Source of the DNA: Nemertoderma westbladi
Lineage: Eukaryota > Animalia > Xenacoelomorpha
NCBI GenBank assembly: GCA_032718475.1
Contig: JAUCBJ010004612.1
Location: 23,534-87,533, forward strand
Direction of reading: 5' to 3'
DNA length: 64,000 nucleotides
In this document: positions 30,931-50,251 of the stretch, in pieces
How positions within the stretch are numbered: position 1 is the first letter of the stretch
Layout: the number at the start of each line of letters is the position of its first letter
Notes under the pieces: generated by a model
Database searches by the model: none
The model's input: only the letters and a program-made list of their open reading frames with translations
What the model was told of the DNA's origin: nothing
Position numbers and translations under genes: made by a program

Positions 30931-31213
30931 TATACGAGCATTAGTGATTATTATTATTATTACGCAGAACCAAATAATTTTTGATTATACAGTAGTTCCC
31001 TACCGGCTAATCAACCAATCAATAAACCGAATTTAGGCTATTTCTCAGTTTAAGACCTGTATTATTTTTGAAAATATCTTATATATAATCTCTTGCTTTA
31101 ATCACAATTAATCATTTGTAATGGTTTTAGTTTAAAAGTTTTTACTTTGTTTGTTTGTTTGATTTACAATTACTTTGTTTGTTTGTTTGATTTACAATAA
31201 AATAAATTAAATA

Positions 31214-31621
31214 ATGTCTTCTGATTCCGATATGGTTATGCCAATAGTAAGGCATTCATTTTTTGCAGAAGATGGTGAAGCCTATATTGTTATTGATTAT
31301 ACAATTTACCGTCGGGGAGATGATAAATATAAAATTGAGTTTTCTGAAAAAGCCAGGAAAGTTTTAAGCTCAATTGATATTGATGCTTCTGATAATAGTA
31401 TTCATCTCTTAGATTACAACCTGAAAGTTGAGCATGAGGGAAAATTAATCAATATCTTACTATTATCCATGATAGAGGGGTTAATTGTTATTACACAATA
31501 CAACGAAGCTGGTGAAAAGTTTGAAATACGGCTAAATCGGCATAGCCCCTACAAAATTATGTCTTTCTTTATTGTAATGATTTCAAAAGAATCCTTTGTC
31601 GAAACTGAAGAATCAACATAA
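31214..31621 (+). CDS. Polinton hypothetical protein (135 aa)
   Basis: Clean ATG-to-stop ORF in AT-rich DNA after a TATA-like motif (~31081), first gene inside the left TIR. No recognisable motif. Confidence 0.6.
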   Translation: MSSDSDMVMPIVRHSFFAEDGEAYIVIDYTIYRRGDDKYKIEFSEKARKVLSSIDIDASDNSIHLLDYNLKVEHEGKLINILLLSMIEGLIVITQYNEAGEKFEIRLNRHSPYKIMSFFIVMISKESFVETEEST

Positions 31622-31842
31622 TGTTGAATATGTTGATAATATCATTGATTCTTGACTTTTCCCACTATATTATAAATATTTTATGATTATTTATAAAATT
31701 TTGATGTTTTTAATTATGAAAAAAAAAACATCAAATTTTAAATAATCGAAAATTGTAGTAGTAATTGCATATACAGTATAACAGATTTGTTTGTTGTTGT
31801 GTATTGAGGTAATTATTTTCAATTTACTTTAAAATTTCGAAA

Positions 31843-32292
31843 ATGGATATTTTAAATGAAAAATGTCCAGTTTGCTATTCTAAGTTATTGCAACATCGAG
31901 ATTATTATAAATGTGAAAATAAACATGCAACTTGCGTACAATGTATTGTACAATATTCCGAAATGAATAATTATTGTTCTAAAATTTGTCCTATTTGTCG
32001 CGCACCCATATCTAAGTTTAATATAAAGTTGGCAAGATACCAACCCTATTATTGGAAAGAGCTTCGCAATATAACTTATATTTCTGCGGAAAGTAATGAT
32101 CCAGGAGATTTATTTACAATATTGGAGAATATTTTTTATAGAAATGTAGTACGACGGTGTTGCTACTATATTCCTTATTTTTTTAGCAGCGAACATAAAA
32201 AAATCATTAGCGCGAAATTCTCGGGAAGTGATTTCCAAACCGCCGATGTTACCTATCATTATTTCGCGTATAAAGATGCTCACCATGCTTGA
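31843..32292 (+). CDS. RING-finger (C3HC4-type) protein
   Basis: CPVC-x11-CENKHATCVQC-x14-CPICRAPI. Confidence 0.8.
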   Translation: MDILNEKCPVCYSKLLQHRDYYKCENKHATCVQCIVQYSEMNNYCSKICPICRAPISKFNIKLARYQPYYWKELRNITYISAESNDPGDLFTILENIFYRNVVRRCCYYIPYFFSSEHKKIISAKFSGSDFQTADVTYHYFAYKDAHHA

Positions 32293-32515
32293 AATTACAT
32301 TGAAAATGAGTCTATACTATAATTGGAAATAGCACCTTTTGTTGCAGCGAGCGTCACATACTGTAGTTGTGTCATATGTTAATTAAATATACAGTACTCT
32401 AATATTGTAGTTGCATCAATTATTGTTATATACATAGTAATGGTGATGGTTTATTGATATTGATATTTATATTATATTATATTGTATTGTTGATATATCT
32501 TAATAATAATAATAA

Positions 32516-33196
32516 ATGGCTGACTTTAATTCAGGTCCATATAATTTAAACTTTCAAATGGGAACGAGTATGATAATTTCTGGCCCATCTGGTTCTGGAA
32601 AGTCAACATTTGTGAGCAATTTAATTAAACACAAGAATGGTTGTTTCAACGAAGCCCCCTTGCGAGTATTGTATTGTTACGGGAGCAGTCCCCCAACTAT
32701 TCCTGGTATTACTCACCTTTACAAAGGTTTGCCAGAAAATATAGATAGTTTAGTGAATAGTCGAGATTTATTAATTATAGATGATTTATTAACAGAAACT
32801 GAGTCCAGTACAGCTTTAACTGTATTGTTTACTAAGGTAGCTCATCATTCCAATATATTTATTTGTTTTATAACGCAAAACATGTTTTACGGTGGGAAGC
32901 ATAACCGCACAAGATCAATTAATAGCCATACTTTAGTATTAATGAAAAATCCGCGAGACAGTTTATCGGTTTTAAATTTCGCGAAGCAGATGTTACCAGG
33001 GCAGACCAAATTTTTAGTAGATTCCTATCAAGATGCGACTATTGAACCATTTTCGCATTTCTTAATTGATTTACGACAGGAAACACCCGAACATTTAAGA
33101 TTTAGATCGGATATATTTCGTAATCATAATTGTTACATTAAAAATTACATTGACTATAAACGTAGCGAAAATAATAATAATAATAATAATAAATAA
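32516..33196 (+). CDS. Polinton packaging ATPase (A32/FtsK-like)
   Basis: Walker A GPSGSGKST, Walker B LLIIDDL, LFTKVAHH, FITQN, KNPRD, IDLRQETPEHLRFR. Confidence 0.93.
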   Translation: MADFNSGPYNLNFQMGTSMIISGPSGSGKSTFVSNLIKHKNGCFNEAPLRVLYCYGSSPPTIPGITHLYKGLPENIDSLVNSRDLLIIDDLLTETESSTALTVLFTKVAHHSNIFICFITQNMFYGGKHNRTRSINSHTLVLMKNPRDSLSVLNFAKQMLPGQTKFLVDSYQDATIEPFSHFLIDLRQETPEHLRFRSDIFRNHNCYIKNYIDYKRSENNNNNNNK

Positions 33197-33233
33197 TTAA
33201 TATTTTGTAACAATTTTCAATAATGTTGCAACA

Positions 33234-33419
33234 ATGAATAGACTTGTGCAGAAATATCGTAACGAACTGCAATTTCTACGCAGCGCTACCCCTCAACAAA
33301 GAACTAATTTTATTAACCATACCGCGAGTAACGAATTAATACGGCTCATTGTAAATACTGCATTAAATGTTCTAAAAGGTAACGTACTAATAATGGTTAA
33401 AACAGGAGTAACATTTTGA
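33234..33419 (+). pseudogene. truncated conserved small Polinton protein
   Basis: LQFLRSATPQQRTNFI...LIRLIVNTALNVLKGNV matches the small helical protein I recall following the ATPase in many Polintons. It ends abruptly after GNV. Confidence 0.6.
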
Positions 33420-33614
33420 AAATTATATTTAGTATCGAGTAAACCGTTAGCTACTGATTTAAAACCTCAAGATATACCTAGAGTAAATACTACAAAAAGA
33501 AAACCCTTTAAAATATCAACTTCAAAAAAAATAATTAAAAAATTTCAGTTGTTTTTACGGTGATGCCCTTTATAAGAGATTTGAATATACATATTACTTG
33601 CGGTTGTCGAAAAG

Positions 33615-34703
33615 ATGCCACGCAAGATGAAACCGATTTTAAGCCGAAGCTTAGTCAAAAAACTGTTAAGAATTTATTTAGATCCTTCATCCCCTGCGGG
33701 TTTTGCAAGTATCGTAAAATTAGCAAAAGCTGCAAACATCAAACCAGCTCAAGCCCAGAAATGGTTGAGCGGGCAAAAGACATACTCCCTTCACGCACCA
33801 CGTAGACATCATTATCCAACATCTAAAATATTTACGGGAGGCTTAAAATATATATATATGATAGATCTGGTGGATATGCAGCAATATAAATTGCAAAATA
33901 ATAATTATAACTATATATTAACATGTATTGATGCCTTTAGCCGGCTTGCTTTTGCCTATGGTATGAAAACAAAAAAGGGTATTGAAATTATTAGTATATT
34001 GCAAAAAATATTCCAGAAAGGAAAACCAAACAGAATCGCAACTGATCAAGGGTCTGAGTTTCTAAATAAATCTGTAAGGAAATATTTAGATACTATTGGT
34101 ATACAGTATTATGTAATGTATTCTGTGAATAAGGTGGCTATTGTCGAGAGATTCAATAGAACATTAAAAACAAAGATGTTCAAAATTTTCATGCAACGGG
34201 GAAATAATGTTTGGATAAAAATTTTACCGAAGCTCATTTATGCTTATAATAGGTCATATCATAGGACAATACAAATGACACCCATTGAAGTTAATAAATT
34301 TAATGAAACTGAATTAATGAATAGATTATATGGGAAATATAGACAGATTAATCACAAGAAAATAAAATTTAAAGTTGGAGATACAGTACGATTATCTATC
34401 GCTCGTACTGCTTTTGCTAAAGGCTATCGAGAACAATGGACACGTGAATTATTTATTATTCATCGGGTCAGATTGGATAGAGTACCAGCGGTAATGTTCG
34501 ATATTAAGGATAGCGCTGGAGCTATAAGAAACGGCTCATTTTATTCATACGAACTCCAAAAGGTCCACCCGAATAGTAATATTTATCTTCCGATTGACAA
34601 AAATATTGGCAAACTTAAAGAACGTGTACGCAATGGGAAAAAAGAATATTTAGTCCGATTCATCGGATCCAAGAAACAGTCGTGGGTACAGCATATTCAA
34701 TAA
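33615..34703 (+). CDS. int: retroviral-like (rve/c-integrase) DDE integrase with C-terminal chromodomain-like region
   Basis: YMIDLVDM, CIDAFSR, TDQGSEF, AIVERFNRTLK, YNRSYHRTI, FKVGDTVR, GSFYSYELQKV, EYLVRFIG...SWV. ORF intact. Confidence 0.95.
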   Translation: MPRKMKPILSRSLVKKLLRIYLDPSSPAGFASIVKLAKAANIKPAQAQKWLSGQKTYSLHAPRRHHYPTSKIFTGGLKYIYMIDLVDMQQYKLQNNNYNYILTCIDAFSRLAFAYGMKTKKGIEIISILQKIFQKGKPNRIATDQGSEFLNKSVRKYLDTIGIQYYVMYSVNKVAIVERFNRTLKTKMFKIFMQRGNNVWIKILPKLIYAYNRSYHRTIQMTPIEVNKFNETELMNRLYGKYRQINHKKIKFKVGDTVRLSIARTAFAKGYREQWTRELFIIHRVRLDRVPAVMFDIKDSAGAIRNGSFYSYELQKVHPNSNIYLPIDKNIGKLKERVRNGKKEYLVRFIGSKKQSWVQHIQ

Positions 34704-34966
34704 GTTTAGGTTTATACTGTATATTAATTCATTTTGGTCACATATGTCCGTAATTAATTAATCAATCAATATTAACTCGAATGATATTACTATACTATAG
34801 TTCATTCGCTTTAAATAAAGCCAGTAAAATATTGATCCCTCGCATATACTGTAGAAGTGGGAATGAACGTGGTCACAGATGTCTATAATTTAACATTATA
34901 CCGTACTGTACTGTACTGTATGTACAAAGGAGTCAAGTAGAGAGAGCTTAAATAATAATAATAATA

Positions 34967-37396
34967 ATGGCTGTAGATACATATATCACTCTACTTTCAG
35001 ATAGCTCATTAAACACTTACCCCAATAATAACCCTAGCGAGTTTACTGTTGATTTAGCCGAAGAATTATATATTGGTCCAAACGCTAAAATTGGACTCGC
35101 CGAGATACAATACCAAGCAACATACAGTAATATTACTCTGCAAACTCAAATCTTGCTGTCAATCGGGGTAGATGCAAAAGATGCCAAATTATACAGTTTA
35201 TTTCCTGGTATGCATAGCTCTATTCAAGTCATTATTGATGATATAAATAAACTGTTTAATTCTGAAGCGAAATATAGAGATTTCGAATTCATTTTTAATA
35301 CAAATAATTCTAGAATTAAATTTAAATTTCCTAAAAAGTTGAAAAAAATACAATTAAGTCTACGCGGTGATTTAATTCAAATTCTAGGCTTAAAACCGTT
35401 ATTGGATCAGAATCATCCGAGTATTCCGAATTGGGATATATACAGTACCACTACAGTGGATGAATTAAGCAATATAGAACAGCCGATATTAATTTTAAAT
35501 TATAGTGGACCAAAAATTTCGGAAATTGGGATTTTAGATTTTCCGGCTCCCACGAATATTACTCGTAATAAAGATACAATCTTCATATATACAGATATTA
35601 TTAAGAGCTCATTTGTTGGTGACGCTTTAGCACCGCTCTTAACCCTATTAAACCCGGGGGGGGGGTCAATATGACCCCTCCCGTGGTTTTTTTATTATAA
35701 TTCTGAAACAAACGCAGTTGGGAATCTGAAATTTTATGACTTTTCCTAAAAATCTATTGTCTTCCTAGTAGTGAAAACCGTTTTCAAAAATATTGGGTAC
35801 TTTTCGAGTTATAGCGCCATTTTTTAACCCTACTTTTGGCACTTTTTTTGAGACGTTTTTTGAAAATTACATTTCATTAAATATGAATTGTAACATCTCT
35901 ATTTTTTATTTACACGGGTTTTTTGGTGTTAGAAATTTGATGGAATTCATATAAATTGATTTAGAAATTTTAAACTTGTTTTTTTCGGTGGGTGCCAAAT
36001 TTTGGTGCCAGCACCAAATTTTGAAATAAGTCAATTTTGTAAATTGATCGTTTGAAACTTGTTTTTTACGCAATTGGGGTGTTTTGGGTTTCTGGATTCG
36101 AAGAAATATATACGAGTTGCACGAAGCGTATCAAACTTGTATTTTTCGGTGCTGTGTGCAAATTTTGGTGCTAGCACGAAATTTTGAAAATCCATTCAAT
36201 AGATAAAATTGCTTGTGAGAATTTATTTCTTGCGTTTTAGAGGTTTATGGCTGTTCTGAATTCAATGGAAAATATAATTATCGAACTAGACATCTCAAAC
36301 TTGTATTTTTCGGATGTGGGTGCAAAATGTGGTGCTAGCACCAAATTTTGAAAACCATCAAATATATCAATTGATTGTGTCACCTTGTTTCTTGCGTTAT
36401 ACGGGTTTGTGATGGTTCTGAATTCAATGGAATCAGTAAAAATTTCATAAGAGTTGTCCAACTTGTATTTTTCGCCGGTGGGTGAAAATTGTTGTGCCAG
36501 CACCAAATTTTGGAAAATATGCAAATTGATAAGTAGATAGTATCACCTTGTTTCTTGCGTTATATGGGTTTATGAGGGTCCTGAATCCGATGGAATCAAT
36601 AAAAACTGCACTGGACATCGCAAACTTGTACTTTTTGGTGATGGGTACGAAATTTGGTGCTAGCACCAAAATTTGCCAAATTACGCCGAAAAATACAAGT
36701 AGCAATGATCTAGCATATTAGAAATGTATTCCATTAGAATCAGCGCCCTCGAAAACCTGAAAATGTGAATTTATAGCATCGTATAAGTGAATTAAAAATT
36801 TTGTGTTCTAACTGAAAAGTGCTGGTTACTTGTTTTTTTCATTTTTTTCCTACGCAGAGAGGACTAAACAGCAATTTATAGTAATGATATCATTTTTTAA
36901 TATTTTCCAATGTATTTTACACCCCAGAAAACCTGTATTGAAAAATAATTAGCCGAAAATGTAACTTTCAAATTTGGTGAAAATTGTGCACTACTTGTAA
37001 TTTTGGTGCTGCAATATAACCACCCCAGTACATTTTTTCGAAAATTTTTTTTTTCGGTCGGATCCAGACAAGTGATACCTACGTACAAACAAAAAATCAG
37101 ACGTTTTCGTAAATATTTGTAGATTTTAGAGGGGGGGGTCAATATGACCCCCTCCCGGTATTTGTACAACATTTTATAGCCCGGTACTAATAGGGTTAAG
37201 AACCTGTCCTTTAACACAATTAAATCGAAAATATATTAATCACGAATACGAGAGCATTTGCTATTACCCGTTGTTGAATAAAAAACTAAAAACAATCTTA
37301 ATTACTTTACGTGACGGTCAAGGTGAATTAATTAATTTCAACGGTGGTCGCACTGTTATAACACTTAAGTTAATACGTGGTAGTGGTGATGGATGA
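34967..37396 (+). pseudogene. minor capsid (penton/PX-like) protein 1, interrupted by MITE D
   Basis: YITLLSDSSLNTYPNNNPSEFTVDL...IGLAEIQY...IFIYTDII...VGDALAPLL. After removing the MITE it continues in frame RTCP...YYPL...ITLRDGQGELINFNGGRTVITL to TGA at 37394-37396. Confidence 0.85.
35643..37195 (-). mobile_element. full-length TTAA-target MITE copy D, inside the Polinton
   Basis: TTAA at 35639-35642 and 37196-37199; reverse complement of copies B and C. Confidence 0.93.
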
Positions 37397-38238
37397 GTTC
37401 TACGTTAGACTACCAAGTAACTCCTGTCCAATTGATTTTCCTCGTAATACTGGTAGTAATTATCAGATCAATTTTCATGGCGCCTTACCTATAAATCCAA
37501 ACGAAAACTGGGTGGTAGGTATAAAAAGTATATGTTACTTAGCCACGTTACCGTCCATGTATAACAATGTAGAGAATGTTATTTTATTAAAAAAAGGGAA
37601 AAAAAAATTTGAGGATACACTTCCATCCGGTTTGTTCTACAGTATCAATGACATTATAGATTATTTTAACACTGGGGCGTTGAAAGATAAATTACAAATA
37701 GTTGAAAATACTCAGCAAAATAGGTTGCAATTTATTATAAGGAAAACTGTACGAGAGTTATTTATAGGTCAGTCAACAATTAGCCTATTATTTTGGAATT
37801 ACTGAAAATAATCTCGGTGCGAATTTAAATCCAAATTTTAAAATTATTTTAAAGACGAAAAATAATATAAAGTGTTATTTAATAAAGGTTATCGGAAATG
37901 AAGAAAAAGCTTACCAGATGGTATTTTTATGCCCTCAACCACCCAATTCTATTCCAGAACCTAAATCGAACATGTACGTGACTACTAATATAATTGAAAA
38001 TGAATATATTAATGACTTTGGTTTAGCCTTACTTCGTCGTGTCGCGATACCTGATGACGTGAAATATGGTAGTGTAATAAATAAAGAATTTGTCAAGGAT
38101 ACAATTCATTATATCCCTGTAAAAAAATCATATAAGATAACATACATTCATATTGAAATAACAGACAAAGAAGGAAAAGATTTGAATTTTGAATACGGCA
38201 CAACTTCAATTACCTTACACTTTAAAAAAATAAATTAA
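37389..38238 (+). pseudogene. minor capsid (penton/PX-like) protein 2, one frameshift near 37770
   Basis: MDEFYVRLPSNS...FPRNTGSNY...WVVGIKSICY, shift, then LAYYFG...MYVTTNII...LLRRV...YIPV...IHIEITDKEGKDLNFEYGTTSITLHFKK. Confidence 0.83.
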
Positions 38239-38239
38239 A

Positions 38240-38804
38240 ATGGATTCCGATTTATTTCAAAGATACAGTAAACCTCAATATGGTGGTGCAGACTCTAATC
38301 TTGCTGTTTTTAAAGGTGGTAGAAGTACGAGAGGCTCGACGCAAGTTCCTGTTTTTCGAGGTGGTTCATATATTGACCCTTAAGGACAACAAATTGGTGC
38401 ATTTGGTCCAAACTTAAAACAACGTCGTTTTCAACGTTATCGTAGAGGTATGTTGCGAACAAATCAACACGGGGAAGGTATATTTACAGACGCTTTATCT
38501 ACATTGAAAAAATTTGGTAAGCCATTAGCAAAAAAAAGTGTTACAAAAAGCTAAACCATTTACCACAAAATTTATGAGACAACACGTAATACCAAAAGGT
38601 AAGCGGGTCTTACATCAGCAGGCTAATACGGTTATTAATAAAGCATTAAATAAAATGAAACCATCAACAAGATCTGTTGTAGAAAAAGTTTATAGAGATT
38701 TAAAGCGACCTACTAGGCCAATGTCTATGAACATACATCATCGTCGTAGTAAAAATAGAAAAATAAAAGGCAAACTGAAACACTGCGAAAAAAGTATTTT
38801 TTAA
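38240..38804 (+). pseudogene. basic, Gly-motif virion core/membrane-active precursor-like protein (one stop, one frameshift)
   Basis: MDSDLF...QYGG...FKGG...FRGG...stop...QHGEGIFTDALSTLKKFGKPLAKK, then a K/R-rich tail (38538-38804). Located between mCP and MCP. Confidence 0.65.
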
Positions 38805-38806
38805 TA

Positions 38807-40066
38807 ATGTCAATTATTAAGGAATTAGATTTATTTTCTACACAGCCAATACAGACTGAATTTAAAGCAAAGCATTATGAAACAATTTACCCGGTATCCA
38901 ATCTCAGAAGTGAGTCTAGGGAAGTCACGTTCCTTGTACCAAGATCCAATAAATTTTATACGAAACTGCAAGATGCGTTATTAATTACAAAATATACTGT
39001 ACGGTGGGATAGACGACTTGAAAACTCCCATATTTATATGTTGAATTACCCTTCTGGGACTATGTGGAGTGATATTAAAATAGACCTTAATGAGAAGCAG
39101 GTTGAAAATAGCAATAACCATTATTTCTACAAGTCGTACTTATCCAATTTACTATTTACAACATACGAATCTAAAAATGGGCTACTGGGGGCGGGTGGCT
39201 TTCATCAGCCTTTATCTGAACACGGAAATGAAATTAATCCTGGTGCGCATCCTATTGGCGATGCCTTTAGTAAACAAATGCAATTTGTAAGTGGATTGAC
39301 AATTGATTTTGATACTGAAACTAAAATAATACAACCTGGGTATGATTTAAGAATGCATTTTAGAAAAGTATCAAATTCGTTTATTTTTAAAATCACTCCA
39401 AATGCAAACGCTGTGACAAATCTTCCGTTAGAATTAGATGAAGTAAAGATCCTAATCCCTAGAATGGAGGTTAATCCAGTAATAGAAAGCAGTCACCTAA
39501 AAGGTTTAGAGAGTTACGATATTGAATATCAATTCCAAAAAAAGGAGGTTACAATATTTACTATTCCCGCTCAAACCACAAATTACACCCAAACAAACAT
39601 ATTTGATGGTAAAAAACCCAAATTAGTTATTATCGGTTTTATAACAAATAATGCATATTCGGGAGAATTAATTAGTAACCCCTTAAAATTTGAACATTTT
39701 AACCTTAGATGCGCGGAACTGATTGTAGACGGTCTTCCAGTAGGTGGTGTAATATACGACCCTAATTTTACAGATGGAACATACATTTTTGAGTATACTC
39801 AATTAATGAAAAACATTAATACATATATTAACGGTTATGGAGGTAATAATATAGACCATGAAACCTACTTAGGTAATTGCCCACTCATATCCTGGGACCT
39901 AACCGCCGACGGCTATGTTAGAGATCCGCAACCTTCGATATATACTAACGGCCAATTAAAATTAAGATTTGCCGAACCGTTGGTTGAGACCATAAATGTA
40001 ATCGTTTTTAATATTTATGATCAATCATTAAGTTTAAATAGCAGGAAAGAAATACATATCGATTAA
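38807..40066 (+). CDS. major capsid protein (double jelly-roll, PY/hexon)
   Basis: KELDLFSTQPIQTE...YETIYP, YKSYLSNLL, KPKLVIIGFITNNAYSG...NPLKFEHF, WDLTAD, LRFAEPL. 419 aa, intact. Confidence 0.9.
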   Translation: MSIIKELDLFSTQPIQTEFKAKHYETIYPVSNLRSESREVTFLVPRSNKFYTKLQDALLITKYTVRWDRRLENSHIYMLNYPSGTMWSDIKIDLNEKQVENSNNHYFYKSYLSNLLFTTYESKNGLLGAGGFHQPLSEHGNEINPGAHPIGDAFSKQMQFVSGLTIDFDTETKIIQPGYDLRMHFRKVSNSFIFKITPNANAVTNLPLELDEVKILIPRMEVNPVIESSHLKGLESYDIEYQFQKKEVTIFTIPAQTTNYTQTNIFDGKKPKLVIIGFITNNAYSGELISNPLKFEHFNLRCAELIVDGLPVGGVIYDPNFTDGTYIFEYTQLMKNINTYINGYGGNNIDHETYLGNCPLISWDLTADGYVRDPQPSIYTNGQLKLRFAEPLVETINVIVFNIYDQSLSLNSRKEIHID

Positions 40067-40068
40067 GT

Positions 40069-40528
40069 ATGTTATCTACAGAGGACCTTGATATGTTTCC
40101 AGTGGGTGGTCACTGGTCACTATTTGGGAGCGTTTTCATCTAACAAATTACCTAAATTAGATAATAATAAGCGGAGAGATTATGGGTTAATAGTAAACAC
40201 CAATAAAGAGCATCTACCCGGGGTTCATTGGATAGCTATATATATACGAGATAATGAGGCTGAATTATTTAATTCATTTGGACCAAAATATCCAAACAGA
40301 TGTATTGAAAAATGGCTTGAGAAAAATTCAGCAAGTTGGCGTACTACCCGGAAACAATTTCAAGACCCCAGGAGGACCACATGTGGATTATACTGTCTTT
40401 ATTACTTGGTAAATCGAATTCACACAAACTATCCAATGAGAGCGTTTACAAATAATGTGGAAATAAATGAAATAATATTATATAAATGGCTTGTTAATTA
40501 TTATAAAATAAACCAACAAGCGTTGTAA
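40069..40528 (+). CDS. adenain-like (C5) cysteine maturation protease, probable N-terminal frameshift
   Basis: YLGAFSSNKLP, IVNT...PGVHWIAI, LFNSFG, QFQ...TTCGLYC. The nearest ATG (40069) is out of frame with the 40088-40528 ORF. Confidence 0.9.
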
Positions 40529-40559
40529 TTAATCATTTAACTTTTGTTTATCAGATAAA

Positions 40560-41159
40560 ATGGATAATATTATTTTTGTTGATTTTCAATATTATACGAT
40601 AGACAATAAGGAATATCCGGTAGTATTTAAAGAATTTGCTATATTCGATTCTAATTACAACAAAACTAATGTAAAGACATTTTTAATTAAAGGTCCACCT
40701 AATATTAAGTTATCAGCATTAGATAAAGCTCACGTAAACAATTTACGAGACATGACTTCGTATTTACCTTGGGATTACAGTGTCATTTCGCAAGATGATT
40801 TTAAAAAGTACATGAAGAGACATTTAAAATATAAAAAAAATATACATGTATTTGGGTTGATGAAGCGGGCAATATTAGTTTCCCAACTTGATGTTCTCGC
40901 ACCAAATTCGATGGAGAAATTGTGGATATATCAATATCAGCGATATTACAACTATTTAACCCCCTGTCGCTTCCATAATCAATTTATTACAGTAGAAAAT
41001 AAATGTGCTTTCCACTTAAACACAAGGGATAACTGTCTGCGGTACTGCTCTGCAAAACGAGTCGGAGGGTTTGAATTGAAACAATTTTTCGTGAGAAAGC
41101 GTTTAACTGACACTGATGATAAACAGAAAGAAATAACTGCGGTGAATGATGTACAGTAG
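40560..41159 (+). CDS. DEDD/RNase H-fold exonuclease-like Polinton accessory protein
   Basis: IIFVDFQ...VFKEFAIF...FLIKGP...LPWD, and C-terminal CxxH-x8-YCSA resembling DEDD-like proteins of Polintons. Catalytic set looks degenerate. Confidence 0.5.
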   Translation: MDNIIFVDFQYYTIDNKEYPVVFKEFAIFDSNYNKTNVKTFLIKGPPNIKLSALDKAHVNNLRDMTSYLPWDYSVISQDDFKKYMKRHLKYKKNIHVFGLMKRAILVSQLDVLAPNSMEKLWIYQYQRYYNYLTPCRFHNQFITVENKCAFHLNTRDNCLRYCSAKRVGGFELKQFFVRKRLTDTDDKQKEITAVNDVQ

Positions 41160-41658
41160 GTTTACTCTAAGCATGTAATGTGATGGGATAATATAATTGT
41201 TTTAATGTCAATAAAAATAATAAAAACATTAAAATCTATTTTTTTATATCTCAGTTTGACTGAAGGTGTAGGGCTTAAGTTTACACTCACAAACACACCG
41301 TACCTACCGGTAGCCGGCTGTTGTATCAGAGTTTAACTCAGTAGCTAGCCGGCTTTACACATACAGTCATATAGCAACAACGCTAAACTGTAGAACGGCA
41401 GAATGGCACCCCTTTCTAGAGTGACAGCACCCACAGGGCTTTAGCGTTACTTACTAATAATAAAATTAAATTAACCTGACATGAGGTTCGTGAATGCAGC
41501 ATTAGAGGGGCCCACCTAACAATAGGCCTACTGGTACCAGCACTGTAGCTCTCTTGTAACTGTATACTTGGATAGAGCAAGGGCATGCAGGTTTCTTTGA
41601 TTTAAGGATTACGCTATTACACTTGAATGCTTCCAATTTTCTGTTTACAACTTTAATT

Positions 41659-41848
41659 GCTACTACTGTTGCATAGGCAAGCCTATACAGCTATAGTTAA
41701 CTTTATGTGGCCCCCTTTTTCGAATGTTGACTCAATATGGTTGGTCTAATCTACATTACTGTGGGCTACTACTGTTGCATAGGCAAGCCTATACAGCTAT
41801 AGTTAACTTTATGCGGCCCCCTTTTTCGAATGTTGACCCAATATGGTT
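41659..41848. repeat. 84-bp direct repeat (2 copies, period 106)
   Basis: GCTACTACTGTTGCATAGGCAAGCC...AATATGGTT at 41659-41742 and 41765-41848. Confidence 0.95.
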
Positions 41849-42198
41849 TACAGTTAACCTTTAGAACTCACACTAGGCGCACCTTCATTCGGTTAGGCAT
41901 ATAGGCCTAATCACTACTCCTCAACTGAAAGCCGCCTAGCACATTGATACAATAGGTGTGGCTAGCAATATATAAAATTCACTGCTCCCAAGTTCATTCA
42001 TCCACTTCATGTTGTAGGCCTATAGGCCTATAAAACATAGTTAGTTTATTTATGTATTCGCTTTTTTTTTAATTAGATATAAAATATAAAATATACAATA
42101 CAATACAAAAACCTACTGATACCGGTAACACACATTAACCCTCTACCTAACAGACGTGACTAATTATATAGGCCTATGAGTCTACTTGCTGTACGAGT

Positions 42199-42552
42199 CT
42201 ACTGACGTATTCTCGGATCAGATGGAAGTAGTAGAGTTGGTGTTGGAACTGGAGCTGCTGCTATATCTTCATGTTCATCCCAGTTCTCTCCCCTACTATA
42301 ATTGTCCAGACTTATCTGATGCGCTTCTCCAGGTTGTACTCTAACGTTTAAATTGAAGTTTTTATTGGTCGTCAATGTGGTTTGGTGACCTTGGCTGCCG
42401 CTGGTTTTATTTTTAATCATTATTGTTATTTCACCGTTGTTATTTTTTAAATGTAATTCAGTTACATTTAATGATGTAAAATAAAGGTCGTCTCCATCAA
42501 CATCAAATTTTAATAAACAGTCGCCGATATTTTCAATGAAAGAAAATGCCAT
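42199..42552 (-). CDS. Polinton hypothetical protein (~117 aa from MAFSF)
   Basis: ORF with beta-rich N-terminus. ATG in good context is preceded by CCAACAT repeats. No known motif. Confidence 0.5.
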   Translation of the reverse strand: MAFSFIENIGDCLLKFDVDGDDLYFTSLNVTELHLKNNNGEITIMIKNKTSGSQGHQTTLTTNKNFNLNVRVQPGEAHQISLDNYSRGENWDEHEDIAAAPVPTPTLLLPSDPRIRQ

Positions 42553-43297
42553 CTTGGATGTTGGTGTTGGATGTTGGATGTTGGTTGATTGATAGAAGGA
42601 TTGTCGGAACTGAAGTTTGTTGAGGTTAGTTTTTTTTTTTTTTTTCAAATATGAAGATAAGTTAGGCCTAGTCTATACCAGTATTTATTTTTTTATTTTA
42701 CGGTAGGGAAACAAAATTATAGTTCACTGTTAGAAAAATTGAGTTTATATATATTTTTGTAGAGGGTCGCAGATGTTTAGATTACAAAATTCTCATAGTT
42801 AACAAAATGCACAACATAAACCTTTCCCATGCAGATTAGTTAGCGATATATGCTCTGTTCGTTGTTCTATTCTGAATGTAGGGAGATGCATAGCTGATGT
42901 TTTAATAATATGTACCAGTATACAGACTAGTAACAGATAGGAGGGCATCGTCTTTGACTATGAATACCAGCACATAGCCCTAATCTATTCTCACCGAACT
43001 TAGCGTTGCCTGCTGCACACACGCACACTCATAAGTAACAGATGCGCTATTGTAGCTCACTCGTGAGCAGCGATGCTTAGTTAGCTAGCTAGCTACTGCC
43101 ACTGAGTATACTATGCCTACTTGAGTGTTACAAGCAATCGCTCTACTGAAGTTAGTTAGTTAGTTAATTTCCCCCAACTAGTTGTTGATTTTAAAAAAAT
43201 ATTCATAAATTTTTTTCCAGCCAAATTTAATATATATTTTACAGTAAAAATCTCCACCACCAAACAGCAACAACAACAACAATAAATTTCACTCGCA

Positions 43298-43879
43298 CTA
43301 ATTATATTTTACATCAAAAACCCTCGCACCAAACAATAATAAATTATTAACCAGTTTGTTGAATATAGGATAATATATATGAAATTTAAACGGGGAACAC
43401 ATTAATGTACATTTACCAGTGTAGAAGCAGCAAACAACAACAATATTATTTATTCTGACTTTACAGTTATTGAATATTTTGGGCTCGTATGAAATTTCTA
43501 GTTTAACATTATCAAATATAACATAAAACCCGATATTGTTTATAAGTAACCTATAAATTACGGTATCGATACTAAAAATATAAGTACACAAATTGATTGA
43601 TTTAAAAATCAAATTAATGTTTGTTTTTTCGAATATATGCTTTTTCACTTTATTAAAATTATATTTTCTACCGAGAATTGTTATTCGTCCATTTGTAAAC
43701 ATTAATATGGTTGCACCAAATACCTTATATATAAACTGATTAGGTTTGAGTACAATTTTACCAGTCAATTGATTTTTTAATTCTTTTAAATTAAGTCCAT
43801 AAATGATCTGCTTACAACTTATATTTTTATTTACTATTTGATAATTCATCATCAACACCATCGTCTTTTGGTTCTTCAT
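43298..43879 (-). CDS. TATA-box-binding protein (TBP)-like protein
   Basis: Two TBP-type repeats: QIVN...LNLKEL...TILMFTNGRITILGRK (cf. TBP QLQN...LDLKTI...TALIFSSGKMVCTGAK) and SYEPKIF...VVCCFYTGKCTL (cf. SYEPELF...VLLIFVSGKVVL). About 185 aa, the size of the TBP core. Confidence 0.78.
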   Translation of the reverse strand: MKNQKTMVLMMNYQIVNKNISCKQIIYGLNLKELKNQLTGKIVLKPNQFIYKVFGATILMFTNGRITILGRKYNFNKVKKHIFEKTNINLIFKSINLCTYIFSIDTVIYRLLINNIGFYVIFDNVKLEISYEPKIFNNCKVRINNIVVVCCFYTGKCTLMCSPFKFHIYYPIFNKLVNNLLLFGARVFDVKYN

Positions 43880-46800
43880 AAATTGGTATATTTGATAATT
43901 TTATAGGTTTTTTGAGGTTTGTTTTATAGTGCCCCCAAGGAAGTGATTGATTTTTATTAACCCAATAAAGTTTATCATCAAAGCTACTGAGTGCAAATTT
44001 ATTTTGCTTTAAGGTATAAATACGATGTAATTTAGATTGAAATCTGTGTATGTTTTTTTTATTTCTTCATTTGAGTTATATGCTTTTAAATATTCTTCAT
44101 GTGTAATATTCGTTTCCACAACAGCTCTTGTAATACCTTTTGCTCTACGAATATTTTTGTTATTCCATTCCAAAATTGAATATAATTTTGGTCTTAAAAA
44201 TACTGCTTGTTTAATTTCACGTGAAGCTAGTTCATCTTTACAGTAATAAAGTCTCGATTTATTTTTATCGCTGTAGAGAGGGTGATCCTTAGGGTAATTG
44301 GATGTATCTAAAAAATTATTTTTAATTAATGCTTTTAAAAAATTATTCTGCGATGTATTATAGTAACAACCTATTAAAGAGTCGGTATCTGATGCAGCAA
44401 TTTCAATACGGCAGTTTAATTCTTTCTCAATAGGTAGCAATTTATTGTAGAACAGCTCATACATATCCAATTTAGCCAAGTCCAACACAGTGCTACCAAT
44501 AAATATAGGCTTATCGAGAGTTACAGAGTCTTTCACTAATAAATGTCCCGATAATGTATTATTGTATATTATAAATTGTTCATGATTAATACGATTTACC
44601 AATTGGTCGCATTTATCAAGGCTATTTGCGATACGAAAGTTACATCGATCTCTTATCTTTTCTATTGATTTACCAAATAACGAATTATTAAGCAATTTCG
44701 CGACAGCTGTTTCAATGTAACTTTTTGCTAGTCGCCTTTGATTAATATTAAAATCTATGTAATTTTTAAATACAAATTCTTGTTGAAAAGAATATAATTT
44801 ATGTAGTTTAGTAACAATTAATCCATGTTTTATATAAAATTTTAACAGTTTCAAATGTAAATGATAAAACTCTTTATCAAATTGCATCAGCAAGAGTTTT
44901 GGTATAGGCATCCTATATTTACAGGAGGTACCTCTTTGTATCAATAAGTTATTAAATTGTTCCCTCATATAAGGTGAATGCATTGATTCATTTATACTTA
45001 AATGCTCTGGAGCTAACGGTAATTGTAATGTTTGATCGTGAATAGCTTTGGGATAATTTAAATCACATATTAAAAAATATCCAGTAGATCCATCAATGTC
45101 TAAATCTACCAAGTACTCGATTAGTTTTTCTGGAATTGCATTCTCTAAATGTTTAATACTTACTTCTTTGAATTGTGAGGTGGGTAGTTTTTTACTTAAA
45201 TTCCCAGAATATAAAGAGTTGAAATCAATATTAAAAATATGGCATTCTTCCTTAGTAGAATCATATGTACTTGTTCCTGGTATATTTGATTCTATATAAT
45301 GCTTTCGACAAAATGAAACACCACCCCTAATTGATTTTTCAAAATCTCTATATGTCTGATAATCCTTTATTAATTCTATTTTACATTTATTATATTTTAG
45401 TGCGCAATCATAGGTAAATGACGCGATACTACAGTAAAAAACCGCTTCTAAATCGTAATTTTGTTTACAAACATTCCTAAAATTCTCAAATATATCAGCA
45501 AGCAAACAAACATCGAGTTTTAAATAGGCTAAAAGATAATCTTTGAGATTCACACAGTCGAATTGTACCCATGATAATTCCGCAAACCTATAATCTTCAA
45601 TTGTGCATGTTTTTTGACTTAAGTTACTAAAAAAATTATTTATAGACGGCAAACCAGTATCATTAAATTTATTTATATTTGTCAAGTACTCGTATGGAAA
45701 TACTCCTTTCCGTTTAATTGTTGAGTTATTCAAGTTTGGATAAAAATATTTCATTTCTTGTAGAGTAATAGGTAAAATTGAGCTTATATCATGACTCGCT
45801 ACATCCTTTGTTGAACACTCAACTAAATTACTTAAAGAAAAGCTTAAAAATTGATATGTGTCTAAGAAACGTAACTCAATTTTTTTAGAAGTGTTTTTAA
45901 TTGGGATAAAAGCACTCAGTGAAATATATCGTTCTGTATTTCTCGGTATAACCTTTATATCCCAATCTGTGTATTTCTTATCTCTAAATCCGGTTTGTAA
46001 TATACAATGTATATCATAATTACTGGAATTATGCCCGCAAAGTACATACAGGTATCGTTTCAATGATAAACTTCGGTTACAACTATTACAGGCTGCCGCA
46101 ATATATTTACCTGTAATATGTGAATGATGTCTGTTTTTCCCTACATTATTATTTAAAGTAACATTACAATAGAAACAAAATTTTGCTTGTTCAAAATTTA
46201 CAAAATCAATATTAGTAAATGACATAGTTTTATGAGTGTATATTTCTGACCAACAACATAATTCAGTTAAATCAGTATATAATGAATCTAAGAAATCTTG
46301 AATACAATTATTATTATTTGACTTTACGAATGTTTTCAAACGACATTTTGGAGCATCAATTAATTCAGTATTGGGAACAATTAAATAACTCACAGCACAC
46401 GGTATATGCTCCTGTTAAATTTGATTATTAACTGAAGGTTGTAAGATACATTCTATATCAAAGTAGGTGACAAACAATGGGGATAAAGTTCTATCTAAAT
46501 TTGTAAAACTAATGTGTGTTCTTTTTTTATTAGGTAGTTTCTCTCGTTGACTTCTTCCTTGGTAGCATGCGAGACGGTGTCGATGAAGAACTTCCGCTCG
46601 AAAAAAATGAGCCAAACACCTTTCACAATATTTCCTATTCCCGATATGAAGAGCTCTCGTATTCAGCAATCGATTCAAGTTAGTTATGCAAACATAATGA
46701 TTCAGTTTAGGTACATTGTTATTTTTTACTACAAGTAATATATTTAATAACTGTTTATCAGGTGTAATTTTACTAAACGGAGGTTGTCTTAATATAGATA

Positions 46801-47885
46801 CAGGGGTGCGTTTGTTGTCGTTATTCCAACATAGTAAATTAATTATATATTTTGAATTTTGTTTTTCAAAAAGTTTAATCGCTAACTGCCACTCTGTTGG
46901 ATAATCATTTTTCCCGTTGTCAAAAATGAAATGACTCATATAATTTTTGTACGACGAAGTAAGCTGTTTGTTGTTTTTCACTTTGCTACCAAATTTTGCG
47001 GTTATAATAGCCCATTTGAAACAGTCATTATCAGCCGTTTGTATATTTATTATACAATTTTTACCTGATAGAGCCTTAGGTAATTCCATATATCCATGCC
47101 CCTTATATAGTAACGACCTACACTTAGATTCAGCTAATTTAATTTCAACCCTTAATAAAGATTTAATACGCCACCCTGAACCACGTGTGTTAAAGATGGC
47201 TATTTTTTGTAATATATTTTCCACCACATACTCAAACCATGTGTCAAAACTTTGTGATGAATCTACAGTATTAATAGCACCACCAGAAGAATTAAAATAA
47301 AAAGTTTCCAATTGCTCGCCTTCTGAAAAAATGTGATCTGTACATTAATACATTTAGACCTAACCACAGTCTAAGAACATTCATTTCTTTCAATCTATCT
47401 AATATTAACTGAAGAATATTACCTCGAATTTGCGTTAATGCTGTTTCTACATCGGGATAATCTCTAGAAGTTGGGAGGTCATGGACATAAATTTCAAGAC
47501 GATTATCGTGAGCTTCTTGTTCCCGCGTAAAAATTGTTGCGCATGTACCAAGAGCCACCCTTAATTTTTTTCTGGATAATATATTTTTATGTTGCGAAAA
47601 TTTACGCTTTCTTGTGTAGTAACATTTCAAGTGACAATCGTGTTGTAAATAATTCTCATATGTATACTTTTTATTAAAGGTAGAATAAGTCAATTGATAG
47701 GTACGGAACTCCATTTCTTTACAACCAGTAGTTGATTCATGTCGTTTACAAATTTCGCTGCATGAAGTCACGACATGACACTTAAAACAAGAATAACCTT
47801 CAAAATGTGACCGTAGGTGGCGTAAATAATTATGTCTAGTTACATTCATATGACAGAATGAACAACATATTGTTATTTTATCCAT
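43827..47885 (-). pseudogene. polB: protein-primed family B DNA polymerase, three lesions
   Basis: N-terminal C2H2-like fingers; GSGW; INIQ...DCFKWAI; YFDIECIL; HNSSNYDIH; FLDTYQF; KGVFPYEY; DFNSLY; KLLNNSLFGK; SDTDS. C-terminus ALSSFDDK...LPWGH appears after a homopolymer frameshift (~44055). Also a frameshift at ~47300 and an in-frame TAA at 46415. Confidence 0.95.
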
Positions 47886-48033
47886 GCTGAAGTTTGTTTA
47901 GATAAATAATAATAATAATAATAATAAAATATCTCCAAAGATTAAAATAAAATGAAATGAAATGATATTGACTATATCTAAACATTTATATGCTAGCGAG
48001 TGAAATAATTTTAAACCAATCACCAAACACCAA

Positions 48034-49146
48034 TCACCAATCGCCTATGGGTATTGGAAACCTCAAAGAGTTTAACTTATGATCAATGTTAGGATAATAA
48101 TCTGGTTTCCATGGAGAATTAGTAACTGGATCTACTGGAGCTGGGTTAACAGCAACTTTCTGTTTCTTTGTAGGTGATGCGTTGGTAAATTTACTCGATG
48201 ATCTTGGCTTCCGAGGTAATATTTCAGGAAAGACCTGTTGCGGTTGAGAGCAACTCTCTCCAACATCCGGATTAGGTGATGGGATCTCTACGAATGCTTT
48301 AGGTTTATCCAAAAGGACAAAACCATCTACATTGGCTTCAATAAGAGAAACGCCATCCATAGCCTCTTTGAGAAAACTAATATGGGCTTTATCATTCAAG
48401 TAATGCAACTCAATAGAATTTCCACCTGCTCCTACTTCAGTAGAATTATCGGTGTTGGTGATAATAATTTTTTTATTATTGGTTTTAATCATTTTGAGAC
48501 GGTCTGATAATTGAATGATATTTTTATCAAAAAGATGCTTGTCTGGTTCATCAATTTGAGTGTCCCACTCTCGCAACAAAACGGTTAGTTCCTGATTTGA
48601 CAAATTGAAACCCGTATAATAGTCAAAACCAACACTATCAGCGTATCTGATGCTGATTTTCCATAAGCCAACATAGTTGGTTCCTTTAAAAGCTGTTACA
48701 AATCCAATAAACTCTGGATTTGATAATTCAATGTAGAATTGATCGCTAATAATCTCTAGCGGTGGAGAGAGAAATTGCAATAATTTCCCTCTGTATTGAA
48801 TTAGAACTTCAGTAAAAGCTTTGTTGAGGACTTTACATTTGCCTTGTTTCTGAACGTAAACATCACCCGATGTGGGGTTGATAGAAATATTCAAATTTCC
48901 CCGCGCAAAACGAAGAGCAGCATATATCCTACCTGGTATAATTGCTGGTCTGGATTGATGTTGGTTTTTGGTTGTTGTTTCTAGAATGTCTAGCAAATAG
49001 CGGGTATCTTGATGGGAAAAACAAATTGATTCGTTGTCCTCCTGAGATTCCACAATAAAATATTTGCTGTGAACGGCGGTACAAGTATATTTATTGTAAG
49101 TAAATTTCCAGCTATTTGTTGCTCCGGTTTTTTGCGTTAAGGCCAT
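48034..49146 (-). CDS. 370-aa protein with a PC4/Sub1-like ssDNA-binding domain and C-terminal NLS
   Basis: FVTAFKGTNYVGLWK-x13-TGFNLSNQELTVL resembles PC4 VSVRDFKGKVLIDIREY...KGISLNPEQWSQL. PTKKQKV resembles an SV40-type NLS. Confidence 0.6.
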   Translation of the reverse strand: MALTQKTGATNSWKFTYNKYTCTAVHSKYFIVESQEDNESICFSHQDTRYLLDILETTTKNQHQSRPAIIPGRIYAALRFARGNLNISINPTSGDVYVQKQGKCKVLNKAFTEVLIQYRGKLLQFLSPPLEIISDQFYIELSNPEFIGFVTAFKGTNYVGLWKISIRYADSVGFDYYTGFNLSNQELTVLLREWDTQIDEPDKHLFDKNIIQLSDRLKMIKTNNKKIIITNTDNSTEVGAGGNSIELHYLNDKAHISFLKEAMDGVSLIEANVDGFVLLDKPKAFVEIPSPNPDVGESCSQPQQVFPEILPRKPRSSSKFTNASPTKKQKVAVNPAPVDPVTNSPWKPDYYPNIDHKLNSLRFPIPIGDW

Positions 49147-49210
49147 AATAATAATAATAAATATGAAAAATATTATAAGTGATAAATTTTAAACCGTATC
49201 GCTGTAATAA

Positions 49211-49491
49211 ATTGACACCATAGTTCTCACTCTAAAATTGTGTTTGGATGTAAGGAAGAATTTATAGTATCGATGAATAAATATTCATTCATCGATACTA
49301 AAAATTCTCCCTCACATCCAAACGAGATTTCCTTTGAGTTACATAATTACATTTAGAAACCCAATGTGGGAATCAGTATCATTTATTCGAGTGATTCCGA
49401 CCAATGAATATACAACGAGTAAGATAATGTAGAAATTATTAAGGAAATAACACAATTTCAGAGTGAGAACAAAAAATTAGATATGGTATCA
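49211..49491. promoter_or_regulatory. nested inverted repeat / fold-back structure upstream of the PC4-PolB-TBP gene block
   Basis: Inner arms 49242-49278 and 49287-49323 (~37 bp, 3 mismatches). Outer arms 49211-49244 and ~49449-49491. Confidence 0.6.
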
Positions 49492-49820
49492 ATATATTAC
49501 CATGAAGATTACAAGTGATGAATTTTAACAAAAACATTCAGTTATATATAAGTTTCTGAATACGTATGGATGTGGCATAATCAATGTAGAAGAGATGGGA
49601 TGTGGCATAATCAATGAATAAGAAAAGAGATGGGTTGCAATGTGGATGAATGGTTGCGTGGATAGGAAATACGTGAAAGAATATGAATCATTGGGTTGTG
49701 CGTAATAATAATCAATAATTATAATAAAAACGCACAGTATAATGTTAGTAGTAGCCTTTCAATATGGCACAGATGCTGAGGGATCGGTTAGCTTGAGTAA
49801 CTACTATGGAAATGTGAGAA

Positions 49821-50251
49821 CGTGTAGTTGACGCGTGGCGGAATTTCATGTATCATACTGGCTGGTTGGTTGGTTTGTTGGTTTGGCGACAGCAGTCGAG
49901 GAGTTGGCAATCGATATAATATAATATATAATATGCGTGATGCGTGTAGATGGCCACGTCGTCATTGTCGTCACCATATACAGTATACAGTGGTGGTAGC
50001 GTGGCGGTGGTGGTGGTGGTAACGTGGCGAAAAGGTGAATAACATTAGGGTTAGTTAGTCAGTAGTCGAGTAAGGCGGGCATCGCGAGGTTAGGCTATGC
50101 TACGATTGGTTGATGGCAACTGCCGATGGTGACATATGGCGCGCTCCGCAATTTAGCACCGGAATTTGGCATTTTGTAAAGGCCTCCGAATGGAATGCCC
50201 ATAGCCCAAGCTAGGGAGGACTATGGTGGGGACACTTCTTCTCCTACTACT
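49821..50251 (-). repeat. Polinton right terminal inverted repeat
   Basis: Reverse complement of the left TIR; ends CTACTACT followed by TSD TACGCC. Confidence 0.95.

What the first reader, a model, noticed from the sequence alone, without database searches (positions are those of the whole stretch)
43298..43879. Polinton-encoded TATA-binding protein homologue overlapping the end of PolB
Seen: an intact, intronless ~185-aa ORF with both TBP repeats recognisable. It keeps three of the four DNA-intercalating Phe positions (LMF, EPKIF, CCF; the first is uncertain) and starts inside the last codons of the reconstructed PolB frame. Known: TBP homologues occur in large DNA viruses (Nucleocytoviricota), but TBP is not among the canonical Polinton genes (POLB, INT, ATPase, PRO, MCP, mCP, PW, PZ). 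Inference: a ~18-kb integrating virus may carry its own promoter-recognition factor to redirect host Pol II, or a dominant-negative TBP mimic. I cannot exclude that such genes are already noted in some invertebrate Polintons.
Basis: partly seen in the sequence, partly recalled or inferred. Interest (0 to 1): 0.85.

Follow-up and report, generated by a model that had tools for sequence, protein, structure and literature searches.

The report
Polinton carries its own divergent TBP
A virus-like Polinton transposon with many copies in its host carries a gene for a heavily altered relative of the cell's TATA-binding protein, which likely helps point the host's RNA polymerase II at the element's own genes, although a matching promoter word is only weakly visible in this copy.

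Summary
ORF 43298-43879 (-), 193 aa, passes Pfam's TBP cut-off, and each half matches TBP alone. It keeps 3 of the 4 intercalating Phe positions and starts inside PolB's last codons. It lies in a 19.7-kb Polinton with TIRs and a 6-bp target duplication; this copy is partly decayed. Variants among other copies favour synonymous changes (19 of 40 listed; pN/pS about 0.26-0.42). TBP-like genes occur in 7 of 82 related Polinton contigs; four group with this element in both ATPase and TBP trees, and another also carries TFIIB. Two relatives put a variant box, YATAAACR, before packaging, integrase and capsid genes; elements with no TBP seen favour canonical TATAAA. In this copy that box is weak (P about 0.04). 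Best reading: a viral promoter-recognition factor using host TFIIB and Pol II (0.6). In print I found only a figure label for non-animal relatives. The scan reported this trait earlier in at least 5 other genomes.

The parts
43298..43879 (-). TBP-like ORF, 193 aa (184 from Met10); two TBP repeats
   Evidence: Pfam PF00352 above cut-off, halves, profiles with shuffles, model and fold search
30514..50251 (.). Polinton/Maverick element, 19,738 bp, ends AGTAGT...ACTACT; 6-bp target duplication TACGCC at 30508-30513 and 50252-50257
   Evidence: flank joined without the element in run X4
30514..30931 (+). left terminal inverted repeat
   Evidence: arms 98% and 95% complementary; 13 mismatches and 7 gap openings in 421 aligned bases
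49820..50251 (-). right terminal inverted repeat
43827..47885 (-). protein-primed PolB, broken in this copy (frame changes near 47,300 and 44,050, a stop near 46,415); its last segment overlaps the TBP start
   Evidence: six-frame segments; matches to relatives' PolB
43899..43928 (-). two canonical TATAAAA words upstream of the TBP gene (43928-43922 and 43905-43899), inside PolB's 3' end; candidate host-TBP promoter, untested
   Evidence: not beyond shuffles (P 0.13)
32516..33196 (+). A32/FtsK-type packaging ATPase
   Evidence: Pfam Pox_A32 E 0.001; 83 homologues
33155..33162 (+). candidate box TATAAACG, 79 nt before the pX-like ORF at 33234
   Evidence: shuffle P 0.01
33615..34703 (+). retroviral-type integrase
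   Evidence: Pfam rve E 2.3e-10
34967..37396 (+). putative minor capsid gene 1 (label from similarity to relatives and recall), split by an insertion
35638..37196 (.). inserted 1.56-kb non-coding element with terminal repeats at a TTAA site (piggyBac-like, label recalled); absent from other copies
   Evidence: joint across it in all four runs
37389..38238 (+). putative minor capsid gene 2, frame change near 37,780
38726..38733 (+). candidate box TATGAACA, 81 nt before the major capsid gene
   Evidence: shuffle P 0.095
38807..40066 (+). putative major capsid protein (no Pfam hit; label from size, position and relatives)
   Evidence: 21 homologues at 21-27%; synteny in relatives
39991..39998 (+). 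candidate box CATAAATG, 78 nt before the protease start
   Evidence: shuffle P 0.035
40069..40528 (+). adenain-type protease, frame change near its start
   Evidence: Pfam Peptidase_C5 E 6e-6
40481..40488 (+). candidate box TATAAATG (also fits the canonical TATA consensus), 79 nt before the 199-aa ORF at 40560
   Evidence: shuffle P 0.055

Best explanation
The ORF encodes a divergent two-repeat TBP-fold protein kept under selection by a Polinton lineage, and it likely works as the element's own promoter-recognition factor, binding TATA-like words in the element and recruiting host TFIIB and RNA polymerase II. Shown: TBP homology, location in the element, excess of synonymous variants, TBP-like genes in related elements. 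Inferred: the gene is made early from a canonical TATA promoter inside PolB's end; its rewired DNA face (no F99-type Phe, no P191-type Pro, second Asn and both Thr positions changed) reads variant boxes such as YATAAAYR before packaging and capsid genes; the acidic stirrup docks host TFIIB, since this element has no TFIIB gene detected.
For: TBP match and residue map. Alignment-guided model has the beta-alpha-beta4-alpha pattern twice; TBPs are the top 5 of 48,161 chains at Z 10.0-11.9, rmsd 4.2-5.5, 166-168 aligned, next Z 6.7. 19 of 40 listed variants synonymous against 7.6 expected (P 4e-5; 0.005 at kappa 6); no listed variant hits the three Phe or makes a stop or frameshift. The other laid copies encode acidic residues at both TFIIB-stirrup positions (read). 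7 of 82 ATPase-anchored contigs carry TBP-like ORFs. The window's ATPase falls in an 8-row clade (SH-aLRT 96) with four of them, and its TBP groups with the same four (80/82). L008 has TBP directly followed by TFIIB (E 5e-11). YATAAACR lies before 6 of 8 core genes in TBP-clade relatives against 3 of 135 in elements with no TBP seen, which instead show TATAAA (44 of 135); it is absent before the TBP gene in L043 and L087. A matrix built only from relatives finds its four best sites here 78-81 nt before pX-like, protease, ORF199 and major capsid genes. Precedent: herpesvirus ORF24 (PMC12529657).
Against: De novo motif searches in this element gave nothing robust (6 tests, none below 33 of 150; 16 tests, best 1 of 100, falling to 103 of 600 at another window length). 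The relatives' matrix gives only P 0.035-0.04 against composition-matched shuffles, and a canonical-TATA matrix does as well over all 15 genes (P 0.034). No good box before ATPase, integrase, either minor capsid gene or the second pX-like gene. All six C-type boxes come from two related contigs (L043, L087); L023 and L025 have TATAAATG, which host TBP could read. 'No TBP seen' contigs are mostly short. ORF24 needs all four Phe and the Pro (PMC12529657 preprint passages), and this protein lacks one Phe and the Pro. The fold model used TBP-like rows and is circular; the single-sequence model failed (pLDDT 32.5). The TBP branch is very long (4.79) and its grouping may be long-branch attraction. 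Only 40 of 67 variant rows were shown.
Confidence: 0.6

Rival explanations
1. The protein is a decoy or dominant-negative TBP mimic that ties up host TFIIB or TBP regulators, or occupies TATA boxes without starting transcription, to damp host or silencing responses.
For: Loss of one intercalating Phe, the Pro and other DNA-face residues while the acidic stirrup is kept in other copies; weak box in this element.
Against: Does not explain the variant box that follows TBP-bearing relatives or the TBP-TFIIB pair in L008; three Phe and both turn Gly are kept.
Confidence: 0.15
2. The TBP fold was repurposed as a DNA-bending or end-binding protein for replication, integration or packaging, not for transcription.
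For: Here the gene overlaps PolB and in four relatives it directly precedes the ATPase; TBP lobes have non-transcription uses in RNase HIII and RnlA (PMC7221094 passages).
Against: Gene position varies among elements; TFIIB partner in L008; box contrast concerns gene starts, not termini.
Confidence: 0.13
3. It is a captured host TBP or TRF gene that is decaying as neutral cargo.
For: Very long branch, at most 25% identity to any TBP examined, no sequence relatives in the large databases; many amino-acid variants at codons 105-134.
Against: Synonymous excess and no frame-breaking variant at 10% or more; retention in a clade whose ATPases are only about 40% identical.
Confidence: 0.07
4. The Pfam match is a chance resemblance of an AT-rich, Ile/Asn/Lys-rich ORF.
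For: Score only 2 bits above cut-off; no direct hit to solved TBPs by phmmer; biased composition.
Against: Both halves match separately; 0 of 1000 shuffles reach the score on two profiles; E 2.8e-8 to a profile of Polinton TBPs found independently through the ATPase.
Confidence: 0.02

Closest known systems
Cellular TBP family (Pfam PF00352; yeast TBP 7o4i_O/1rm1, human 1cdw, archaeal 1mp9)
   Same: Two repeats, predicted saddle fold, F116/F190/F207-type Phe, both turn Gly, YEP stirrup motif.
   Different: 17-25% identity; shortened first stirrup without a clear F99; P191, N159, T124, T215 positions changed; shorter helix H2; about 10 extra residues in repeat 2; encoded by a mobile element.
Beta/gamma-herpesvirus late TBP mimic (KSHV ORF24) with TATTWAA box (PMC12529657; preprint 10.1101/2025.08.25.672222; passages read)
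   Same: Viral TBP-like factor in a virus without its own RNA polymerase, proposed to read a variant TATA before late genes.
   Different: ORF24 is a large multidomain protein in a six-protein complex, keeps four Phe and lacks the TFIIB-binding acidic residues; this is a bare core of about 185 aa with no such partners detected.
TBP-like and TFIIB-like pairs of large dsDNA viruses (Ravarani et al. 2020, PMC7221094; sections 7, 11 and passages read)
   Same: Divergent viral TBP that keeps the most conserved Phe; L008 shows the pair in a Polinton-like contig.
   Different: There almost all TBP-bearing viruses also have TFIIB; this 18-kb element has none detected and other copies keep the acidic stirrup, pointing to host TFIIB.
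TBP-labelled gene of MELD viruses with adintovirus-like PolB (Starrett et al. 2021, PMC8502044; Fig. 5 legend and section 3.4 read, figure not visible)
   Same: TBP-like gene in a mid-size Polinton-related virus.
   Different: A label only, in the section on non-animal datasets; no analysis of selection, promoters or distribution.

Membership tests
TBP family (PF00352) | Profile score above the curated cut-off | tested here: met
   25.1 bits against 22.9
TBP family (PF00352) | Two tandem TBP repeats | tested here: met
   each half hits TBP as best family; full-length match to Polinton TBP profile
TBP family (PF00352) | Saddle fold | tested here: inconclusive
   alignment-guided model pLDDT 64 matches TBPs at Z 10-11.9 but is circular; single-sequence model pLDDT 32.5
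Canonical TBP | Four intercalating Phe | tested here: not met
   3 of 4; first stirrup shortened, F49 aligns there in one alignment but falls in strand S3 of the model
Canonical TBP | Two Asn, two Thr and the Pro of the DNA face (positions recalled; Asn and Pro roles also in the ORF24 paper) | tested here: not met
   one Asn candidate (N17 or N19); T99, L69, M160/C161 and N137 at the other positions
Canonical TBP | Two acidic stirrup residues for TFIIB (PMC7221094 section 11) | tested here: inconclusive
   this copy has one acidic and one basic residue; the other laid copies encode acidic residues at both
Canonical TBP | Binds a TATA box and supports initiation | not testable with these tools
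   needs binding and reporter assays
Polinton/Maverick | TIRs starting AG, 6-bp target duplication | tested here: met
Polinton/Maverick | pPolB, rve integrase, packaging ATPase, adenain protease, capsid genes | tested here: met
   Pfam for integrase, ATPase (weak) and protease; PolB and capsid genes by similarity to relatives; several broken in this copy
Orthogonal viral TBP-TFIIB system | TFIIB-like gene in the same genome | tested here: not met
   no Pfam TFIIB hit among 27 window ORFs or segments scanned; L008 TFIIB finds no relative among 5,023 segments including the whole window; a very divergent one cannot be excluded
Herpesvirus-type late vTBP system | Shared variant TATA box before late genes | tested here: inconclusive
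   clear in L043 and L087 (0 of 100 permutations); weak here (P about 0.04)
Herpesvirus-type late vTBP system | Extra Pol II-binding and DNA-binding domains and partner activators | tested here: not met
   the ORF is a bare TBP core
Host paralogues TRF2/TBPL1, TRF3 | Grouping with a host paralogue in a tree | not tested
   no host or animal TBP-paralogue sequences were held; the tree had only 2 eukaryote-like viral and 14 archaeal references

The most novel reading that the evidence does not exclude
A lineage of 15-20-kb Polintons runs a one-protein early-to-late switch: host TBP transcribes the viral TBP from a canonical TATA, and the viral TBP, whose DNA face changes together with its box from element to element, redirects host TFIIB and Pol II to capsid and packaging genes. 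This would be the smallest known viral takeover of the pre-initiation complex, a source of orthogonal TBP-promoter pairs, and evidence that these elements had a timed virion-producing cycle.
Probability: 0.4. Interest if true: 0.85.

Novelty: new variant of a known kind. Interest (0 to 1): 0.66.

Why it matters
How Polintons control their genes, and whether they have a true early-late viral cycle, is open. A single element-encoded TBP with a candidate box makes this testable with binding and reporter assays. It also extends viral TBP mimicry from large DNA viruses to an 18-kb integrating element, and offers natural TBP variants that lack residues thought essential, useful for learning what sets TATA specificity.

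Tried and rejected
No whole genome is held, so copies could not be compared at full length. The ORF found no sequence relatives: 0 of 111 candidates, 0 among 1.84 billion representatives, none in viral contigs, no TBP by phmmer against solved structures, no look-alike in earlier findings. ATPase and PolB as single queries found nothing in viral contigs; the capsid alignment had no usable conserved stretch; an alignment of four Polinton TBPs found no more loci in viral or genome contigs. The single-sequence fold failed; its best Z was 4.0, with TBP second at 3.6. De novo motifs ACTATA, AGATTTG and A.ATACAT did not survive permutation or multiple testing. No RNA holder was listed; X5 is only guessed to be RNA and has flat low depth, so it is not used for expression. 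Test of one origin for 8 Polinton TBPs: p-AU 0.25, neither shown nor rejected. No complex was folded: no host TFIIB was held and a stand-in would pass or fail by likeness. Literature: searches and term searches of the main texts of PMC10748475, PMC8097293, PMC10120064, 10.64898/2026.06.19.733378, 10.1101/2023.10.06.561300 and 10.1101/2022.05.25.493380 found no description of a Polinton TBP; their supplements were not searched.

Full report
The ORF and its setting. ORF 43298-43879 (-) is open for 193 codons. It lies in an element of 19,738 bp (30514-50251) with terminal inverted repeats of about 420 bp, ends AGTAGT...ACTACT and a 6-bp target duplication TACGCC. The element encodes an rve integrase, an A32-type ATPase, an adenain protease, a putative major and two putative minor capsid genes, pX-like ORFs, a RING ORF and PolB. 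This copy is partly decayed: PolB is broken in three places, one minor capsid gene is split by a 1.56-kb insertion that other copies lack, and the second minor capsid, second pX-like and protease genes change frame. The flanks hold LINE-like and LTR-like fragments (labels recalled). In runs X1 and X3, 32,192 and 14,132 contigs were laid on the element, which indicates many diverged copies, though depth is not copy number. The last PolB segment (43830-44066) matches PolB ends of relatives and overlaps the TBP start by 26-53 nt.

Is it TBP? Pfam TBP is the only hit (E 1.6e-5, above cut-off), and each half hits TBP separately. The Atlas gives 29 of 30 TBP clusters, with a low recognition value. 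On a profile of 66 archaeal TBPs (of 120 loci fetched) plus two eukaryote-like viral TBPs, and on a profile of seven Polinton TBP-like proteins, 0 of 1000 shuffles reach the real score. A model built on a 10-row alignment has pLDDT 64 and the expected strand-helix order twice; TBPs head both searches (Foldseek E 1e-7; Z 11.9, rmsd 4.7, 168 aligned). That model is circular; the single-sequence model failed. Direct sequence searches found no relatives, so the protein is extremely divergent.

Residue map. Yeast numbers come from the ungapped match of L004 to yeast TBP 66-237; the roles are recalled, and partly stated in PMC12529657 and PMC7221094. Kept: F116, F190, F207 (F61, F136, F152), L114, G119, G125, G210, R105- and R196-type basic residues. 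Changed: the first stirrup is shortened with no clear F99, as in L023, L025, L043 and L087; P191, G192, N159, T124 and T215 positions differ. At the two TFIIB-binding stirrup positions this copy has one acidic and one basic residue, while 92-100% of the laid depth in all four runs encodes acidic residues at both (read).

Selection. That the ORF is open here says little (P about 0.7 by chance given about 8 lesions). Variants among other copies say more. Of 67 variant rows, 40 were shown; 25 fall at third positions, 19 are synonymous against 7.6 expected, 21 change the residue, none makes a stop; pN/pS is 0.26, or 0.32-0.42 with transition bias (P 4e-5 to 0.005). The only indel listed inside the ORF is 3 nt. 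These rows mix lineages with this copy's private changes and were classed one at a time, so the ratio is rough.

Relatives. Using an ATPase alignment, 82 Polinton-like loci were fetched (2 viral; the best 80 of 448 confirmed, from 27 of 64 parts of the metagenome collection). Seven carry TBP-like ORFs, all confirmed by Pfam: L008, L023, L025, L043, L061, L080, L087. Most other contigs are short, so absence is not shown. In the ATPase tree of 83 rows the window sits in an 8-row clade (SH-aLRT 96) with L023, L025, L043, L087 and three short contigs. In the TBP tree of 24 rows (14 of 66 archaeal rows sampled) it groups with the same four at 80/82 on a very long branch. The agreement suggests inheritance within a lineage. 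L008, L061 and L080 lie elsewhere in the ATPase tree, which means further captures, exchange or losses. L008 has TBP directly followed by a TFIIB gene (E 5e-11) among integrase, protease and capsid-like genes; it is filed in a giant-virus bin, so its assignment is uncertain. No TFIIB was found in the window.

Promoter words. In L043 and L087, YATAAACR precedes 9 of 16 and 6 of 8 genes, but not the TBP gene; 0 of 100 permutations match. Over core genes it occurs in 6 of 8 upstream regions of TBP-clade contigs, 0 of 8 in the three other TBP contigs and 3 of 135 in contigs with no TBP seen, which are enriched for TATAAA (44 of 135). The six sites come from two related contigs, so this is about one independent contrast. 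In the window, de novo searches failed. A matrix from 18 sites of the four relatives gave P 0.0002 against random element windows but only P 0.04 (all 15 genes) and 0.035 (8 structural genes) against dinucleotide shuffles; a canonical matrix gave 0.034 and 0.34. Its four best sites lie 78-81 nt before the pX-like, protease, ORF199 and major capsid starts (range of 3 nt; P about 1e-4 for uniform placement, noticed after the fact). ATPase, integrase and minor capsid genes have no good site. The TBP gene has two canonical TATAAAA words upstream, not beyond shuffles.

Mechanism. The best-supported reading is an element-encoded promoter factor that uses host TFIIB and Pol II (0.6). Homology, selection and lineage retention are shown; DNA binding, box specificity, TFIIB docking and timing are inferred. 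Rivals are a decoy (0.15), a replication or packaging role (0.13), neutral cargo (0.07) and chance (0.02).

Known and new. Viral TBPs are known from large dsDNA viruses, usually with a viral TFIIB (PMC7221094: sections 7 and 11, passages, 4 supplementary files searched with no Polinton term, 1 unreadable), and from herpesviruses (10.1101/2025.08.25.672222 and PMC12529657, passages). For Polinton relatives I found only the label 'TBP' in the Fig. 5 legend of PMC8502044 and in its preprint 10.1101/697771 (passages and section 3.4 read; 1 supplementary file searched without a hit; figures and preprint supplements not visible). Searches (listings only) and term searches of six main texts gave no description; subscription papers, Repbase entries and unseen supplements may hold one. 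The scan's own notes report Polinton TBPs in at least 5 other genomes (38 findings) and TBP-TFIIB pairs; they gave me the lead to look for a box and are not counted as evidence. Verdict: real, a new variant of a known kind, interest 0.66.

Noticed in passing
L008:3585-4783: Polinton-like contig (filed in a giant-virus bin) with a TBP gene overlapping a downstream TFIIB gene (zinc ribbon plus cyclin repeats), head-to-head with the putative major capsid gene.
   Followed up: partly
L043 and L087, upstream of ATPase, pX-like, integrase and capsid genes: Shared non-canonical box YATAAACR, mostly 36-56 nt before the start, absent before the TBP gene.
   Followed up: yes
window 30764-38995 and 49977-49990: The word ATAC[AT]GTA occurs 14 times on the + strand of the element (0.77 per kb) against 4 times in 44 kb of flank (0.09 per kb), including both terminal repeats and regions before the RING, ATPase and first minor capsid genes; near-palindromic, binder unknown.
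   Followed up: partly
window 35638-37196 (also 3862-4475, 24239-25538, 26987-28293, 55884-57150): Non-coding element of about 1.56 kb with terminal repeats, TTAA ends and an internal 163-bp tandem repeat; at least five copies in the window at 92-98% identity.
   Followed up: partly
window 48034-49146 (-): 370-aa ORF with no Pfam hit or relative among the loci; its middle resembles PC4-type ssDNA-binding repeats to my eye (recalled, unconfirmed).
   Followed up: partly
window 41160-42190: About 1 kb without a long ORF where the two gene blocks converge, with a roughly 105-bp direct repeat and four TAGGCCTA palindromes.
   Followed up: no
window 31843-32292 (+), 31214-31621 (+), 42199-42552 (-), 40560-41159 (+): RING-like ORF and three ORFs of unknown family, none with relatives among the fetched loci.
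   Followed up: partly
window 30300-30513 and 50252-50500: The insertion site is itself repeated: run X4 holds the flanks joined without the element at high depth.
   Followed up: no
window 5423-23000: Decayed LINE-like (endonuclease and reverse transcriptase-like) and BEL/Pao-like LTR retrotransposon fragments in the left flank (labels recalled from the translations, not scanned).
   Followed up: no
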